A stretch of DNA of 64,000 bases from Podarcis cretensis (Eukaryota). A program made the position numbers and the translations under genes. Shown in pieces: positions 743-50,800 of the stretch; the first letter of the stretch is position 1; the number at the start of each line of letters is the position of its first letter. Under the pieces are notes generated by a model. That model saw only the letters and a program-made list of their open reading frames with translations, ran no database searches and was not told the DNA's origin. Location of the stretch: contig OX638160.1 in the NCBI GenBank assembly GCA_951804945.1, positions 11,470,001 through 11,534,000 of the forward strand, in the 5' to 3' direction.

Positions 743-961
743 GAACAGTATTTTGCTCTGCGACCAGAATTACGGACAAGGAACTATGGGAATATTACTG
801 ATCGTGTGGAGTTGAGAAGAAAGTTGAACTGCAAATCGTTTAAGTGGTATTTAGACAATATATACCCAGAGATGCAAATTTCTGGTTCTAATGCCAAAGT
901 ACCGCCGCCACTCTTTTTCAACAAAGGGCAAAAACGACCAAAAACATTGCAACGTGGACGG
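743..961 (+). CDS. GALNT11: GALNT11 coding exon (C-terminal catalytic region/linker), 219 nt
   Basis: AG 741-742, GT 962-963; [45 protein letters not shown]...QRGR, typical GalNAc-T CKSFKWYL motif; phase 0-0. Confidence 0.95.
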
Positions 962-1280
962 GTAAGATGCTGTTCTAACTCTTCAGGTTCTTTAAAATCA
1001 TACTCTGAAAAATGTAGTTATAAAGATCACAAAAGCTGCCATCTGAATTAAAAGAAACTATTATTACTTTCTAGCTGTTGTGCAGCTTCGCAATAAGAGT
1101 AGCTTTGAAAATCTGTAATTATGCACTGTAGTTTTTAGATCAAATATGCTAAAGGTATCATATCAGTCTTACTTGCCTTGCTTCCTGTGCAGGTTAACAA
1201 CCTTCGTTATGGATGAATGTCTTTCACATTTGTAGGTGACTATAATCTCTTGTCTGATCAGAAGCACTCTTGCTTTAGGA

Positions 1281-23800: not shown

Positions 23801-24614
23801 TAGATGGACCAATGGTCTGACTCAGTTTAAGGCAATTTTCTGTCTCTAATAAATGGAGTGATACATACAAGAAAGGAAGGACAGACACTATACTTCAAAT
23901 TAACAGTCCTTTCAAATTATTTGGTGTTTGCATTGCACTGGGAATTTTGTTTAAAAAGAAACTTTAAAGGTTAGGATTACAACTTTCACAATTGCATCAG
24001 TTTGAAAAGATAGTTATAGAATAAAAAATATTTACAGTGTGAGTAATGGGTCACATCCAATGCCGTGGTTCCACTATGGCAGTAGACTTCCACTTGTGCA
24101 TAAGAACTGCGCCCCCCACCCCCCCATGTCTGCCAGTGTGGGAGGGGAAGTCCCGTTGCAGAAGCAGAATTTGCCTCACCACTTTCCAGTGAGGAAGAAC
24201 AATAATAAAGTTGGCAATGAGAGAACAAGAAAAACGAAATCTTTTAAAATCCAGCATGTCTCATGAAACACCATAGTATAACTACTGCTGGATCCCAATG
24301 TTTTGTTTCGTATAGAACATTTGGAGAATCTATGTAGAAAAAAAAATACACCTTGTAGATTAGCTGAGAATAGTAATCTGATACCCCGTCAAGCGTTGCA
24401 CTACCAAAGCTTCCCAAAAGGCGATTTCCACTATTCAGATGGCCACTGCCATAAGGAAGAAAGTGGGCAAAACTCACTCCAATTATCGGCTCCATTAGAG
24501 GCAGCAAAGAGAGTTGCTGTAGGAAAAGATGAGTAGTAATTATTTTTCACTAGCAATATGCAACAATGAAGTGTAAATTTCCACTCAATTACACTAAGAT
24601 GACTGTAACCATTA

Positions 24615-38800: not shown

Positions 38801-41800
38801 ATTTAAACCTACTTGTAGAACAATTTTGAAATTAAGGATACTAAACAAGATCACTTACTTGAAGAGGTTACATATTTTTGCCCCTGCTTCAGTGTTTTTC
38901 CACAGAAAAGCAAATGTTCAGCAGGTTCGATAAAAGGGTCATGAATTCAATTTAAAGTGATTGAGTGTAGCCTTTAATGTATGTGCAGCATTACATTCAG
39001 ATATAATTTTAAACCGGAACATTTTTAAAGGGTCACTTAATATAAGCAACACTTAAAACATATAGATAAAGAACCCACAAATTTATTAAATGACGACATA
39101 TTTTATGATGAAGTAATTAAGAAGTATACCTAATTCCATGAGGTCTCATTGCCATTCCACCCATATCTCCTGGAAATTGGGGTCTATTAAACTGCCCATC
39201 GATGGGAAATCCTGTGAACCTCAGTCCGCTGGGAGGGACAATGGCTGACCTAATATTCCCAGGATACGGAGGAGGAGGTCTGTTAAAAATCTGGTTCAGA
39301 TTTTCTTGCTGCTGCCATGGTTGAGTAGATCCTGCATGAGGTGCTGTGGTAGGCTCTTGTGGCATTTTCTCTTGACGGATTGCATTCTTCTTTTGTTGTT
39401 GCTGCTGCAGAATAATCTCACGTAATTTCTGGCGCTGACAGGGAACAAAAACAATTCAGCTCCTTTATTTATTTCATTCTTATCCCACCCTTCATCAGCA
39501 AGCGATCCCAGGACAGGTTATATACATAATGAAACATGAAAACAGAACAAACAGTAAATAAAATATTAGAAGAACATAGAAAAAGCACATAAGTAACACA
39601 TATCTCCTTCCAGCATTAATACCACAAAATCAGTTCCCCTCTCTGCATCAGAAGCCTGAAGGAAGAGATGAGCTTTTGGGCTGGTGCTAAAAACACTAAA
39701 CAATGTCCGCACCAGCCATTATCTCGAGGGGGAGATTATTCTACAATTGGGGTGTCACCACTGAGAAGATCCTATTTTATGTAACTGAGTACCCCTCAAG
39801 AGATGGGACAAGCCGAAGGGCTTCCCTGGAAGTTCTTAAAGCTGAGGAAGAAAAATAAAGGAATATGTGTTCCTTCAGGTATCTCGGTTCTATGTTGTTC
39901 AGGGCTTTGTAGTCACCACTAAACCCTGAAGTGGTTTCACTAGGATACAGACAGTGTTAAAGGCCTGATACTGATGATAAGACTACTGCCACAGAATACA
40001 AAATACCTGCATCTTATAGTATAAAAAAAAAACGATTTACTGATCCAACACAGCCACTATGTTTCTAAAAGCTATTGATAAGTTCCATCAACTCTGGCAT
40101 CTCATAGTTTTCACAAGCACGTTATTCAACAACAGTAAACTCACTTGTCTTATTTTTTCTGCATCTGCCTGAGACATTGTGGTCGGCGTATTTGTTGCTC
40201 CAGCTGTTGGTACTGGGCCAGAAGAAGCTTGGGGGAACTGTTTTCCCTGCAAGCTCATGGAAGAGTTTGCAGATGAGCCCAAATTCCCCTCTGATCCAGA
40301 TCTTGGCTGATCTGCAACATCGTGGGGAAGCTGAGCGGTTCCAAAAGTTTCTGACTGAGGTCTTGGAGTCATTGGAGGTTGATCATAAGGATCACAAGGT
40401 GGTGCTGTTGAAGCATGGCTAAAAGAATCTGTCACAGCAGGTCCCAATAGCTTTGGAGGCTGAGAACACGGATCTGATGGCCTTACAAATGTCCCAGGTA
40501 AGGTCCTGTTCTGTGATGCCTGCAGATAAGGATCACGATTTGACATTAGGGCTGGTCTACTGTAAGGTTCTGGAATTCCAGGCCTTGGTGTTGCTGGTGG
40601 TTGAGAATATGGATCACTACTAACCGGCCTTGGTGTACCTGGAGGTTGGGCATATGGATCAGAATGCCTTTGATTTGCTGAAACCTGAGCAAATAAGTCT
40701 CCAGTCTGTGCAGGTCTTGGTGTGAGTGGCTGATGCATGTATGGGTCAACAGCAGTGGGGCGAGGAGTACCCGGAGGCTGGGCATAGGGGTCTGCAACTG
40801 GCCGAGGAGTACCCGGAGGCTGGGCGTAAGGGTCTGCAACTGGCCGAGGAGTACCCGGAGGCTGGGCGTAGGGATCTGCGACAGGCCGAGGGGTACCCGG
40901 AGGCTGGGCGTAGGGGTCTGCGACAGGCCGAGGAGTACCCGGAGGCTGGGCGTAGGGATCTGCGACAGGCCGAGGGGTACCCGGAGGCTGGGCATAAGGG
41001 TCCTGAGCAACTGCCCTTGAAATAGTTCCAGACTGAGAAAAAGTATCACCCTGGTTTCGCACTACTCTTTGTGGGTGGGCAAAAGTCTCTTTTATTGCTG
41101 GATGTGGAGTCAGAGGAGGCTGACTATATGGGTCATTAGATGGATTGTGTGAAAAGCTATCTACTGGCTTTGGTGTCAAAACAGGCCGTTCATAGGGGTC
41201 CACAGACATGCGCCGTGGGGTTGGTGGCATTGAAGCATATGGATCTTGTGGGGACTGAGTTGGGCGCATTGGAGTTTTAAATGGGCCAGGACTTCCCTCA
41301 ACAGCAGGAATGGGAGTCAATGGTGGGCGTGCATATGAGTCAGCAGGAGACATCCGGGGCCTAGGAAACGAATCTGTTCTGGGAGGTGGTTTAGCAAATG
41401 GGTCACTGTTTGCCACTGATAAAGATGCTTTCCCTGGTTGTTCTGCAATTAAAGGTGATCTTGATATTCCCAAAGGTTTGGAGAAAGGTTCCGTTCCCAT
41501 TGTAGGCCTGGGTGTATCTGGAGCTTTTGCATAAGGGTCACTGTTGACTGGAGACAAAGAACATGAATCTCTGACAGGTGATGGCCTGCTCCCTGTTGAT
41601 TCAGATGCCTGAGCTGGCCTGGATAAGGGTGAAGGGGGTGGACAGATATCTACTGATGTAACAGAATTTATTCTGACAAAGTTTTGATTTTGGTTAACAG
41701 GTGGTGGCCTAGGTGTCCCCACCATTTTTGCATAAGGGTCAACAGGAGAAGGTGGTCTGGCAGAGGAGCAAGGAGGAAACATCTGTTGTGATGGTGCCTG

Positions 41801-44800: not shown

Positions 44801-47800
44801 TTACTCTAAAACCCGGGAAGAAGAGAAATCAGAGAGCCCAACTCGTTAGCATCATTATAGGTTCAATGAATATCATTATAGCTACGCTGAAGTAGGGGAT
44901 ATATCAAATTATTCCATTTTACTCACCTTGTGTCTGTGTATGGTGGCTGTGCTATTGTAGAAAATGAGCCTATACCTCCTCCCGGAACCAAAGTTGTATG
45001 AGGGAGATGGGGGCTTGGTCCAATTAGGCCATTTATAAGTGGAACTCTTGAAAATGCATTCTCTCCTTTATAAAGAAAAGTTGAAAACACAAATAATATT
45101 TATTTATGGTAATTTATTTACATACAGGCTTTTTAGGGCATAGCCCACCCAAGGTGGCTCACAATACCATAAAGCACAATAACTTGAACAATCTAAAATA
45201 TCATAATTAAAAATCTGATTACTATCTGAAAGCCAATACTCAGGAAAAATAAAATGTAATAGTAGTACTTTGCATGTGAAAAGCAAACTAAAACTCTGCT
45301 TCACTATTTCACAGTACTAAACTAGACCATTTGAAGGGACATTTTCTGCATACACCAAATATTAAACATTCAAAAATTTTACTCTGTTTTGAAGACTTTG
45401 AAAGAAGATAACATCCAGGGACTAAGCTCAAATAACTCTACCTCACACATCATGCTATTTTGCAGACTAAAGCCTTGTTTTGGCATTGTTTTCTGGGTTC
45501 TGGGATGCTGTACAGAAGACAATGTTTGGTTTCAGGAACATATAATGATCCTTATTCCTTGGCTGGAGACAGGAGGAGCTGAAAAGATGTTGGCCAAGCA
45601 TCCTTGGGTACAGGGGTGGGAACCAATGAAGTAGTGGGGGCAGGGAATCTGTCAAGGGATACCTTTCTTCAGGGAGAATTTGCCAGGAGCTGAGCGACTG
45701 TGGGGCAGGGAAGAGAAGAGACAAAAGTGGATGGAATTTGCAGCACTGAAGAATGTTCTCTGCCACCTTTTTTTCCCTCTTTCTACCTCTCTCTCACACG
45801 TACACATACAACTTGGTAGAGAAAGGAAGAGTGGCCCTGCTCTAACCAGAGGGTTGGACGCAGCCGCCAGGCCACAGATTGTTCACTACTGTCCTAGGTA
45901 GATAGGAGACAGGCTGTATCAAAAGAAACATATCCACCCTTATAGGATAATTTTATTGATAAAAAAAATTAAAAAACCAATACTCTAGCTTCCAGTTTTC
46001 ACAAGACTGGGTGACAATGACTGAATTGTGCGTGAATTGCTAGCAGTTGCATTTTTATTTTTTTAAAAAAGATAGTAAACAAACCTTGATTATGCAAATG
46101 CATGAGTTGAGGAGGTGGCGGTGGTGGGGGTTGTGGCAAAGGAGTTGACTGAGTAGCTGAAGGGCTCAGTACAGCAGTAAATAGGTCTTCAACATCCTTT
46201 CCTCCCAGCTCTGCAAAACACTGCATGTGAGTATATAAGGTATGGTTGCATTTAGTAAGCTTCATAAAATGATACTAAAAAGAAAGAGAACATACCTGGA
46301 ATCTTGTACAGTTTGCCAAGAATTGCACCTGAACAAAGTAAAATCAACAGAAACATTAGCAAACATATACGTACAGTGAACTGTGGTAATTGCAACTAAT
46401 TAAAACCAAGCACGAAGTAAATCTAAAAAAAGTTCCTTCATGAGGCAATGATATAAGAGAAACATTTACCATCTGTGACCATCTTGTCCAGTTCAGGACT
46501 CAGGATTCTATCTAACTGTTCTTCACTCAGTGGCCGTGAACTCTGACTGACGCTTTGTGGAGGTATAGAGGATGGATCATCCGATATGGGTCCAATATCT
46601 AGTCCAGCTGATGGAAGGAAAAGTATGGTTTTAACTAAAAGACCAGCAATAAGCTGAGGTGCCTAGTTTAACAACTGCTTGGAAAATATATTTGAAGCAT
46701 ATTTTTCTATAACACACCCAACTAAAAAACTCATTTGGTCTAAGAAACAAAGGTTTTGCAAACCTGACTGAATGTTATCTTGAATCATAAGCCTTTCCTG
46801 ATATTAAGAACTTAACAATTCCAACAAGTGATTGGATTATTTTAACATTAGAGGCTTCTTTGAAAATATTCATCAGCAGGTAAGAGTTAACCTATGGACA
46901 CTACAAAACCGTCTCTGGAATAGTTAAAGGAGGAAATATTTTCTTTAGAACTGATATAGATACATTTACACAGAACTTAATATGGTGTCTAAATCTGGTG
47001 AAACAAAAACAGCCTGCAGAAATGGATGACTCTACCCTCTTTGGAAGATTCTGCAATTTACTACCTTTTCTAGTGAAGAAGAACATTTGCCAAAGAGAGC
47101 CAAGAATACACTGGGGGCTTCTGCCCAAGGCGCTATCCTTAGATGTTAGGTGTGGTTTGCCAGAAACATTATTGTGTTTCTTTCCACCTTTGGCTCTGGG
47201 GATGCTCAGCAAAAAACAACATTCTATTTAGCCTTTTCTCCTATACATTACACAGTAGTAGTTTTTTTTGTCACAAGTCACTTCCTGGTTCTGTACTTCT
47301 TGGAATGGCGTCTGTCATCAATTACAGTAAAAGCGAGACCTCCCTCCAGGCTCTTCTTCCAAGTACATCTCCATCTCCTCTCTGAACTGCTTTCTCTATA
47401 TTAGAACCTGTAGTACTTCATCTATTCCATAACTGATCTAAATCTGGATTCTGTCTGGTGTTTTTTTTAACTTACATTATTTATTCACAGTATTTATATA
47501 GGTCACCTTGTAATAATATTCTCAGGGTAGCTCACAACAGGAAATAAAACAATTTAACATTCAGTAACAATGATACTATGAAAGTACAAATACAGCATAC
47601 AAACAGTTGCTGAGAATAGAAACAGCTGAAAGCTGAAAGAGATTAAAAAGTATAGGAAAATTAAAAAAAGACATTTGCCTGGCACCAAAATGACACAAAG
47701 GCAAGTGTAGGTGAGCGTCCCTAGGGAGGTCAATCCATAGCTGGGGTGATACTACTGTAAAGGCCTCTCTCTCCCTTAGCCACTTGCCCATCTCACTTGT

Positions 47801-50800
47801 AAGGGGCGCTTGAGTAAGGTCTAGATGGAGAAAGATTCAGGAGCCCTGGTTTTAAGTTATGAAGGGTCTTAAAGTTCAAAATTGTCATCTTGAATTGAGC
47901 CTGGAAAGGACTAAGAGCCAGTGAACAGAATGAAGCACTGTGAGATCAGTACACCCCAAAGAGTTCCAGAGAGTCCACACACCCCTGACCACTGAAGCCT
48001 CCCAAAGTTGTGAGAGAGAGGAGATAGATTAGAGTGGGACAGAAGGATCCAGGGTGGGTTTCCCACCTTCTTCATGATTTGCCCCTGCACAAGACCTCCT
48101 TCCTCCCCACTGAAAAAAGCAAGGCTATCTCTGGACCAAATGGGTGTCCTGGACACTTCCCTTGGCTGATCTGCATTAACTGTGGCATCCAAATCATGGT
48201 AGTTGTGAGTGGCTCTTATCTTTGAAGAACCTTGCAAACATGTCAAGGCATGCTTTTGTGCCTACTGTGCCAAACTGCAGAAGGCCTAAACCACTTGGAA
48301 TAGCTCTGTTGAATGATGAATAATTATACTAGACTTGTTCCTGTCATCACATCACACCAATGAGAGGTGGAACTAAGTATTTCCTCGTGTTGGATTGGCT
48401 AGTGAACACCAGAGAACAGTATATTGCTAAGCAGCACATGGTCATGGTTGCTGAAGCTCAACTGAGTGAGTTTTAGTCAACTTGTCTCAAGGCTATCTAG
48501 ATTATTTATGACCTCTCTGTCTTCTTGTGGGTTACTCCTTATGGGTGATATAGGCACTGGGAGTGGTGGTTGTGTAGGATATTAGAATGAGGTGGCTGAG
48601 AATTTCCAGTCTAAGAATGATAGAATTCTTGGAATTCTACATACAAATGTTACTTAATATGGGTTAGTATCATAAACACACTTAACTTATAGCACTTACT
48701 CACCACTTAGTAACTACAATATTTAGCAGTATATGAATTTAAATACTTGGAAATACAATGTTGAAGCCATTACAAAAAATAATACTTAAAGAGATAATCG
48801 CTTATATAATCTTTAAAAATAATGACTCCAACCTTGTGTTTTATGCTTGACAAAGTTGCAGTGTCCATCCAGGGCCAAACTGATATTAACTTTTTATTCA
48901 TGCTTTTCATAATACAACAAACTAAATTAAAAACAAGTCTATCACTGTGATGCTCTATAAAGCATACTTAAATAGTGCAGGAGGAAGGAAACGTGTTACT
49001 TTGTACTGTGAAAGGCACACACACAAATCCAGTTATCCAATTCACAAATCCAATTCACAACATTTTAAAACAAAATTCTGAAACACTACTAGGTGCACTG
49101 CACAGGCAGGTACTTAACATTGCACAAGACTCTGCACACAGAGATAGTGAAACATGAAAGCATTTTTAGTGACATGGAATATATTTACACATGCAAAAAT
49201 AAAAAATCAGCCGAAACCACTAGGAAAGATGACTACTTCTAACCATGAATCACCCACTGTTTATTTCCTTACCAAAAGGGGAGGATGAGCTCTCAACCTG
49301 GAAAGTGCATAAATCAAGACCTACAAGATCCAAACCAGATAAAATGGATGATTATAACAAGAAAGAAAGAAAAGGAGAGGCTGAAAAAGCAAGAAAGAAT
49401 ATAAACCAAAAGTATATACAACTGCATGCTAAAATAGTATATGGGAATGCCAGACACCAACAAGATTTTTAAAAGTTATCCCCACATCAATAAAGTGCAA
49501 AGTAAAATAAAGTGCAGATTTATTGATCAAAGCAAGAAATAAGAAAGAGTCCTTTGCTTGCTGAAGCATATTTATGGTATAACAAATACATATATAAATA
49601 GTTGCATAATACCATGAACAGGATGATTTTATAAATCAAGACAAATTTCACAAAACCAACAAGAACTTATACATGTACCTGAATGATCCCCAGATTTCAC
49701 TAAATCATCAGAAAGAATTCCAAGTATGTCATCATCAGTGCTCAGCACAAGGGCAGCTAATGGGTCATCCGAGGTACCTACAGAAAACAGGTGCTTTACA
49801 CAATGAGCTTATCCACATTTACCTTTTATTCTGCTCTTTCAAGGCAGAGGTCTGTGCTTTAAAGCTCCATATATGAGTGTGTTTTGGTTGGTCTTTTTGC
49901 CCTGAGCTTTCCCCGCAATGACCCTTCTTTAAAGCCAAATTGGAGCAAATGTCAATTTGGGTTTTCAGTGGACTGACATTTGTTTTGATTGGAATTTAAA
50001 GAGTGGGTTTTTGACCCCAGGGGAAAGCTCTGGAGCAATAAAAAATGGAGGGCACTTGGACACAGAAGTTTATATCACAGTCCTTGCCTAGAAAGAGTGG
50101 AACAAGGTCAGTGTGGAAAAGCCCTTAATCATAACAACTGTGATCCCCCATGTTATTTATCCATTTATCCATTTGCTCCGAGCTCAAGGGTTTTTAACAA
50201 GAATTATTTTGAGTATGTTTTTCTCCAATCAGACACCTTTCTTTTATTTTCTCTTTACGAAAAGGAGGCTTGAATGCTTATTTGTAAACAGAAAGCTCAA
50301 ATTTAAGTAAACTGTTGAAACACCATTTAACGCTTTGGGAATTGGCCTACAATGACTTAAATCAGAGCAAGCCCACCCATAGCACCCCACCTCCTCCCCA
50401 GCTATCCCTACAGATTTTAGGCTTGAAAAAAAGCCTCCTATTTGGAGCCCACAGAATCCTTTTTCCAAGCTTAATTGCAGTGCAGGGGGCCATGGGGGAA
50501 GGGAATCACAGCTGTGATCCTCTTCTGGAAACAACCTCCACTGTAATTAGGCTTGAAAACAGCCGTACCAGTGGAAGGCTTTACTCAAGGCTAATTGCTA
50601 TGGGTGCGGGGATGGATTTCACAAAGGGGGCAGCTAGGAAGGGAAGGGTTAACCATGCAATCTCTGTGAGGATCACCCTCTTTGGCAATTAAGACTGATA
50701 AGGCCTATTTGTGTGAGATCCTGCATATATGAATGTGTGTGCAGCATAATTATGCGGTGTGTGCAATACATTTATGTGGGCACACCAGCTCCTGCAGTAC

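What the first reader, a model, noticed from the sequence alone, without database searches (positions are those of the whole stretch)
49185..49460. 48-nt in-frame micro-exon ([16 protein letters not shown]) with regulated-exon hallmarks
Seen: exon 49273-49320 has a TAG acceptor, a strong G|GTAAGG donor, phase 1-1 matching intron 28 and no stop. It has a long U/C-rich upstream tract, a TGCATG about 80 nt downstream (49190-49195), and no recognisable TE in its flanks. Established: downstream UGCAUG promotes RBFOX-dependent inclusion in neurons and muscle. It is absent from the ORF track and from the canonical exon set I recall. Inference: a tissue-specific insert adding a Ser cluster and an SP site to the disordered region.
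Basis: partly seen in the sequence, partly recalled or inferred. Interest (0 to 1): 0.7.

Follow-up and report, generated by a model that had tools for sequence, protein, structure and literature searches.

The report
Ancient optional micro-exon in KMT2C
This is a real 48-base optional exon of the chromatin gene KMT2C, kept from skates to mammals and already in public gene models; it adds 16 amino acids that likely act as a protein-docking patch, likely switched on in nerve or muscle cells.

Summary
The exon is real. At 49320-49273 (minus strand) lies a 48-nt AG/GT, phase 1-1, stop-free exon of a lizard KMT2C. Its 16 residues occur at the same position in KMT2C models of skate, gar, teleosts, amphibians, turtles, alligator, birds, squamates (16/16 identical in lacertids), marsupials and placentals. 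Models with and without exactly these residues coexist in 19 species. Four runs of related organisms show the skip junction; inclusion could not be measured. So it is an ancient cassette exon, already in RefSeq models; I found no paper on it.

The pyrimidine tract is distal and the proximal tract weak. The serine run is the least conserved part; G-L-D-L-C-x-F-Q-V and the final P-F are what is kept. Neural or muscle inclusion through RBFOX and PTBP is plausible from the motif layout but untested, and one TGCATG arises by chance about 8% of the time. KMT2D shows no counterpart. Ordinary kind, uncharacterised case.

The parts
49679..49777 (-). Upstream KMT2C exon (exon 28 by recalled human numbering), 99 nt, ends in phase 1
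   Evidence: its end is the loose end seen in all four runs
49425..49429 (-). GCATG (partial RBFOX word) 109 nt above the acceptor
   Evidence: chance about 16% per 150 nt
49351..49420 (-). Distal pyrimidine tract, 79% U/C, with five UCUU and five UUCU words between -79 and -42; likely PTBP-type silencer and distal tract
   Evidence: role inferred from PMC4317164 section 9
49380..49382 (-). Competing AG acceptor 60 nt upstream (score 13.5 against 7.4); its use would put a stop in frame
   Evidence: use not observed
49273..49320 (-). 48-nt cassette micro-exon, phase 1-1, encoding [16 protein letters not shown]
49190..49195 (-). TGCATG, RBFOX-type word 78 nt below the donor
   Evidence: binding and conservation untested
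49166..49170 (-). ACTAA, partial QKI-type word 103 nt below the donor (not the full ACTAAY; motif recalled)
   Evidence: chance about 12% per 150 nt
46470..46607 (-). Downstream exon (exon 29), main acceptor 46607 adding A-G-L; weak second AG at 46598

Best explanation
This is an ancient in-frame cassette micro-exon of KMT2C that adds 16 conserved residues to the acidic linker between the PHD4-6 fingers and the HMG box; it is likely repressed by PTBP-type binding to the distal U/C tract, likely included in neurons or muscle with RBFOX help, and likely works as a short protein-docking motif. Shown: exon structure, conservation from skate to placentals, include and skip models in the same species, skip junctions in four runs. 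Inferred: which tissues include it, which proteins regulate it, and that the G-L-D-L-C-x-F-Q-V and P-F residues bind a partner, perhaps tuned by the neighbouring S-P site.
For: Structure. Conservation: all 120 proteins listed carry it (117 by pattern, 2 variant forms by eye, the skate; the query held the insert and only the best 120 of 294 were listed, so this is a selected set). Across 49 genera chosen for carrying it, mean identity to consensus is 0.87 against 0.69, 0.78, 0.82, 0.93, 0.76 and 0.68 for exons 27 (part), 28, 29, 30, 31 and 32. Alternative use: 111 include, 23 skip, 2 uninformative of 136 models and 91, 19, 1 of 111; exact 16-residue include/skip pairs in 10 species and 9, among them Zootoca, Lacerta agilis, zebrafish, Xenopus and Rhea. 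Skipping in RNA: 4 reads of 14 laid in X22 and one contig each in X2, X5, X13 run from exon 28 straight into 46607. Layout: weak proximal tract, distal UCUU-rich tract, downstream TGCATG, the layout that Li et al. link to PTBP1 repression and RBFOX enhancement (PMC4317164 section 9). Position: no Pfam domain and none of the 60 listed solved stretches covers it; residues 1415-1540 have net charge -16.
Against: No inclusion read was seen, and inclusion could not be measured. Tissues of the runs are unknown. The TGCATG is single, has about 8% chance, and its conservation was not testable. Most RefSeq models include the exon, which also fits broad inclusion (though such models tend to be built around the longest form). 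KMT2C is not named in the main text of a survey of neuron-specific splicing in chromatin regulators (0 hits, PMC11864812), nor in the 12 supplements of a zebrafish neural micro-exon study; the mouse Rbfox/Ptbp table holds four Mll3 exons, of 120, 105, 213 and 162 nt, none this one. FoldIndex around the insert is slightly positive (0.15), so 'disordered' is not shown. 80 of 335 sixteen-residue windows nearby are more conserved. No binding partner is shown.
Confidence: 0.55

Rival explanations
1. It is a conserved cassette exon that is partly included in many tissues or follows development, with no neural or muscle switch; the TGCATG is incidental.
For: 202 of 247 listed cluster members include it; splice sites are only a little below the gene's median; TGCATG chance about 8%; absent from the neural lists searched.
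Against: All four runs laid, from four studies, gave only the skip junction (records may be filtered out, so weak); the distal tract is the most pyrimidine-rich of 37 acceptors.
Confidence: 0.3
2. The insert acts mainly as a phosphorylation site (S-P, proline-directed kinases).
For: S/T-P in positions 10-16 in 47 of 49 genera; S12 94%, P15 98%.
Against: The serine run itself varies (three or more serines in 18 of 49, four in 2 of 49) and the invariant residues are G, L, F, F with C and Q at 98%; the protein has many other S-P sites.
Confidence: 0.1
3. It is a pseudo-exon or chance open stretch.
For: Two other intronic stretches score as well on splice sites and are open; no inclusion read.
Against: 13 of 16 residues match the skate, 13 zebrafish, 14 cat, 16 the lacertid models; the profile scores 71.8 here against 22.6 for the next best place in the window.
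Confidence: 0.01

Closest known systems
The same exon in RefSeq predicted KMT2C isoforms (e.g. XP_034985248.1 Zootoca, XP_005162602.1 zebrafish; skip forms XP_060136901.1, XP_073797515.1)
   Same: Same position, same 16 residues (identical in lacertids), both include and skip models.
   Different: Database predictions only; I found no paper on its regulation or role. No human or house-mouse protein was among those I examined.
RBFOX-enhanced, PTBP1-repressed micro-exons of 51 nt or less (Li et al. 2015, PMC4317164; abstract and section 9 read)
   Same: 48 nt, frame-keeping, conserved, pyrimidine-rich upstream, TGCATG downstream, 2.7-kb downstream intron.
   Different: No binding or knockdown evidence here; the only MLL3 row in the supplements searched is a different 23-nt exon (one file not searched).
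Neuron-specific small exons of chromatin regulators such as LSD1 and PHF21A (PMC11864812; passages read)
   Same: Short conserved in-frame insert in an H3K4-pathway protein.
   Different: The LSD1 insert has 4 residues and lies in the catalytic domain; this one lies in a linker; neuron specificity is unshown and KMT2C is not named in that text.
SRRM3/4-dependent neural microexons (3-27 nt)
   Same: Short, frame-keeping, conserved, weak proximal tract.
   Different: 48 nt is above the size limit and the nearest TGC is 71 nt above the acceptor; the near-acceptor UGC rule is recalled.
CtBP-binding PxDLS motif, HIC1 variant GLDLSKK (paper title seen in the reference list of PMC3671672; the paper itself not held)
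   Same: The insert starts G-L-D-L; it is one of only two PxDLS-like hits in the 5017-residue protein under a pattern I widened to allow Cys.
   Different: Cys instead of Ser, no following Lys or Arg, and Leu4 is Phe in 57 of 120 models, all or nearly all spiny-rayed and other teleost fish; binding untested.

Membership tests
Alternative cassette exon of KMT2C | Canonical splice sites, frame kept, no stop | tested here: met
Alternative cassette exon of KMT2C | Peptide conserved at the same place in orthologues | tested here: met
Alternative cassette exon of KMT2C | Skip form exists as RNA | tested here: met
   four runs of related organisms A and B
Alternative cassette exon of KMT2C | Include form exists as RNA | tested here: inconclusive
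   No direct reads; indirect support from 13 of 15 lacertid models
RBFOX/PTBP1-regulated micro-exon (51 nt or less) | Length 51 nt or less | tested here: met
   48 nt; definition in PMC4317164 abstract
RBFOX/PTBP1-regulated micro-exon (51 nt or less) | Downstream TGCATG and upstream U/C words present | tested here: met
   (single TGCATG, about 8% by chance)
RBFOX/PTBP1-regulated micro-exon (51 nt or less) | Motifs conserved in orthologous introns | not testable with these tools
   No other vertebrate genome is held
RBFOX/PTBP1-regulated micro-exon (51 nt or less) | Higher inclusion in brain, heart or muscle; response to knockdown; binding | not testable with these tools
   Tissues not given; exon absent from the tables searched
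SRRM3/4 neural microexon | Length 3-27 nt | tested here: not met
   48 nt; limit as in abstracts listed
SRRM3/4 neural microexon | UGC close above the acceptor (rule recalled) | tested here: not met
   nearest TGC at -71
CtBP-binding PxDLS/GLDLS motif | P/G-x-D-L core | tested here: inconclusive
   G-L-D-L-C in 58 of 120, G-L-D-F-C in 57 of 120
CtBP-binding PxDLS/GLDLS motif | Ser/Thr then Lys/Arg after the Gly form (recalled pattern; HIC1 title) | tested here: not met
   C-T-F follows
CtBP-binding PxDLS/GLDLS motif | Binds the CtBP cleft | not tested
   No complex prediction was obtained

The most novel reading that the evidence does not exclude
A micro-exon older than the split of sharks and bony fish gives the enhancer methyltransferase KMT2C, and not its paralogue KMT2D, a switchable docking motif in neurons or muscle; its G-L-D-L-C start is a degenerate CtBP site, so splicing would tie an activating H3K4 writer to an NADH-sensing corepressor in one cell type, in an isoform that tests on the usual form would miss.
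Probability: 0.08. Interest if true: 0.75.

Novelty: already known. Interest (0 to 1): 0.33.

Why it matters
KMT2C is an autism and developmental-disorder gene (PMC8437376, PMC11925151, passages read), and how broadly expressed chromatin enzymes gain cell-type roles is an open question that small neural exons partly answer for LSD1 and PHF21A (PMC11864812). A 16-residue optional insert kept across jawed vertebrates, more conserved than most flanking exons and without a counterpart in KMT2D, is a cheap and precise handle: junction counts give its tissue pattern and an include/skip pull-down gives its partner. If the human reference form lacks it (recalled, not checked), variants in it could be scored as intronic. 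As a kind of feature it is ordinary and it already stands in predicted gene models.

Tried and rejected
Run search: no RNA holder listed; raw-read rows came only by species label. Atlas: one search was aimed at the wrong stretch and is void; one search gave no usable hit. RNA fold of 49150-49420: z = 0.29, no special structure. Tandem repeats near the exon: only short arrays more than 180 nt away. KMT2D counterpart: best profile score 13.5 in the matching 3.7 kb, below the opposite-strand control 19.5; a diverged exon cannot be excluded. Origin by duplication of the start of exon 29 (both begin G-L-D): score 18.9, within background, not supported. QKI lead: the Mll3 target in PMC6429586 is a 105-nt exon, not this one. 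Paper searches with no paper on this exon: (listings only, except those opened); 'PLDLC'+CtBP gave 0. Supplements without the exon; files left unsearched: 1, 3, 17, 1, and they may hold it. PMC4390143, PMC133903 and PMC5828955 are not held. Earlier scan notes: nothing. Three of 40 junctions were mis-called and dropped before scoring. One search used a wrong offset and is void.

Full report
Setting. The minus strand of the window holds most of KMT2C: a rhea and a lacertid KMT2C protein align exon by exon from 63618 to 9493, and Pfam finds PHD, HMG, FYRN, FYRC and SET domains in a lacertid model. The window's largest exon scores best against the lacertid cluster among 15 reptile proteins (3433 of a possible 3665; next 3030), so the host is a lacertid-like lizard.

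The observation. The exon is at 49320-49273, 48 nt, between TAG and GTAAGG. Junction fitting gives phase 1 on both sides, a 358-nt upstream and a 2665-nt downstream intron, and the reading [23 protein letters not shown]. I scored its sites on matrices made from 36 other junctions of the gene (37 of 40 junctions kept; 3 mis-called ones dropped). The donor is a little below the median (25 of 36 higher) and the acceptor near it (20 of 36 higher). The last 20 bases of the intron are poor in pyrimidines (34 of 36 as high or higher), while -60..-40 is all pyrimidine and -100..-30 is the richest of the set, with five UCUU words. A better-scoring AG lies 60 nt upstream and would bring a stop. TGCATG is at +78; there are 24 such words in 42,497 intronic bases, about 8% per 150 nt, and 3 of 37 donors have one. 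The flanks are single-copy in this genome, with repeats starting about 1 kb downstream.

It is an ancient exon. The first protein search returned 17 partial proteins; of the 12 with the right anchor, 8 teleost proteins carry the insert and 4 (tuatara, sterlet, camel, hake) lack it. Two searches with insert-bearing regions listed 120 proteins each (of 294 and 452 hits), so they favour carriers. The insert is present in a skate, gar, bowfin, many teleosts, frogs, caecilians, a newt, turtles, alligator, birds, geckos, skinks, monitors, anoles, snakes, lacertids, marsupials and placentals including a vole and two lemur-group primates. It is letter-for-letter the window's peptide in Zootoca, Lacerta, Podarcis, Anolis and Rhineura. 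No human or house-mouse protein was among those examined. Over 49 genera the insert averages 0.87 identity to consensus, above exons 27, 28, 29, 31 and 32 and below exon 30; 80 of 335 nearby windows are higher. The KMT2D locus of this genome joins the equivalents of exons 27 and 29 with no match to the insert between them.

It is optional. Among listed cluster members, 111 of 136 and 91 of 111 include it, 23 and 19 skip it, 2 and 1 are uninformative. In one search, 11 of 23 species with two or more models have both forms, 10 of them differing by exactly the insert; one search adds 9 species. These are predicted models, which tend to be built around the longest form, so the ratio says little about abundance. 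In RNA of related organisms, 4 of 14 reads laid from X22 and one contig each from X2, X5 and X13 pass from exon 28 directly to 46607. Of 378 insert-bearing models 367 continue at the 46607-type acceptor and 9 at the 46598-type, all vole or lemur-group.

How it likely works. Splicing: a weak proximal tract with a distal UCUU-rich tract and a downstream TGCATG is the layout that Li et al. tie to PTBP1 repression and RBFOX enhancement of micro-exons of 51 nt or less in brain, heart and muscle (PMC4317164, abstract and section 9). That step is inference. It is not an SRRM4-type microexon by size or by the recalled UGC rule. Protein: the insert falls at residues 1446-1461 of the lacertid model, in an acidic stretch (net -16 over 126 residues) between the PHD fingers and the HMG box, outside Pfam domains and the 60 listed solved stretches. 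FoldIndex there is slightly positive, so disorder is likely but not shown. Selection keeps G1, L2, F7, F16 (100%), C5, Q8, P15 (98%), D3, S12 (94%) and V9 (92%), and lets positions 11, 13 and 14 vary. Fixed hydrophobic residues in an acidic linker are what short binding motifs look like, so a docking role is the best guess, with an S-P pair (47 of 49 genera) as a possible tuner. The start resembles the HIC1 form of the CtBP motif (title seen in the references of PMC3671672), but lacks the following basic residues and has Phe for Leu4 in 57 of 120 models; binding is untested.

What is in print. Ten searches gave no paper on this exon; the library lacks most subscription journals. Seen: PMC11864812 passages (KMT2 and MLL3 0 hits); PMC5989265 supplement rows (four Mll3 exons of other sizes); PMC4317164 supplement (a 23-nt MLL3 exon); PMC6429586 table and supplement (105-nt exon); supplements of PMC12064062, PMC5630039, PMC12626424 and PMC8187152 without a hit (22 files in all went unsearched, see Tried and rejected); passages of PMC8437376, PMC11925151, PMC11863264, PMC7545264, none on this exon. 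Splicing databases, which I could not query, may well list it.

Verdict. It is already in public gene models, so the feature is known; its tissue pattern and role appear undescribed. The RBFOX/PTBP neural-muscle switch with a docking-motif role is my best reading at about 55%. The serine-cluster emphasis is not supported. Interest 0.33.

Noticed in passing
window 24352-24516 (-): A 165-nt, phase 0-0 exon (55 residues) that is missing from 1 of 15 lacertid models, so a second cassette exon of KMT2C; no TGCATG within 300 nt above or 500 nt below.
   Followed up: partly
window 49679-49777 (-): Most squamate models are three residues shorter in exon 28 than other amniotes (LAALV against LADLSEV); the two geckos keep the longer form.
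   Followed up: no
frog proteins P0193, P0197, P0335, P0437: Frogs have a further optional 5-residue piece between exon 28 and the micro-exon, used independently of it; the lizard frame there has a stop.
   Followed up: no
window 46598-46607 (-): Vole and lemur-group models use only the inner acceptor (no A-G-x), while other vertebrates use the outer one: a lineage shift of a tandem acceptor.
   Followed up: partly
window about 40700-41060 (-): An 11-codon tandem repeat of about eight copies inside the 2-kb exon, which leaves several frames open.
   Followed up: no
window 743-1048 (+): An open frame that looks like a GalNAc-transferase exon; GALNT11 as KMT2C's tail-to-tail neighbour is recalled, not tested.
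   Followed up: no
L004 2952-6550: The KMT2D paralogue seems to lack an exon-28 equivalent as well as the micro-exon.
   Followed up: partly
L006, L007, L008 (G000:C7 35.11-35.13 Mb) and L009-L011: Three tandem 2-hydroxyacid dehydrogenase-like genes, and three separate CtBP-like loci in this genome.
   Followed up: no
window 47480-48200: Old dispersed-repeat fragments (72-90% identity to 10 other places) in the downstream intron, about 1 kb or more from the micro-exon.
   Followed up: partly
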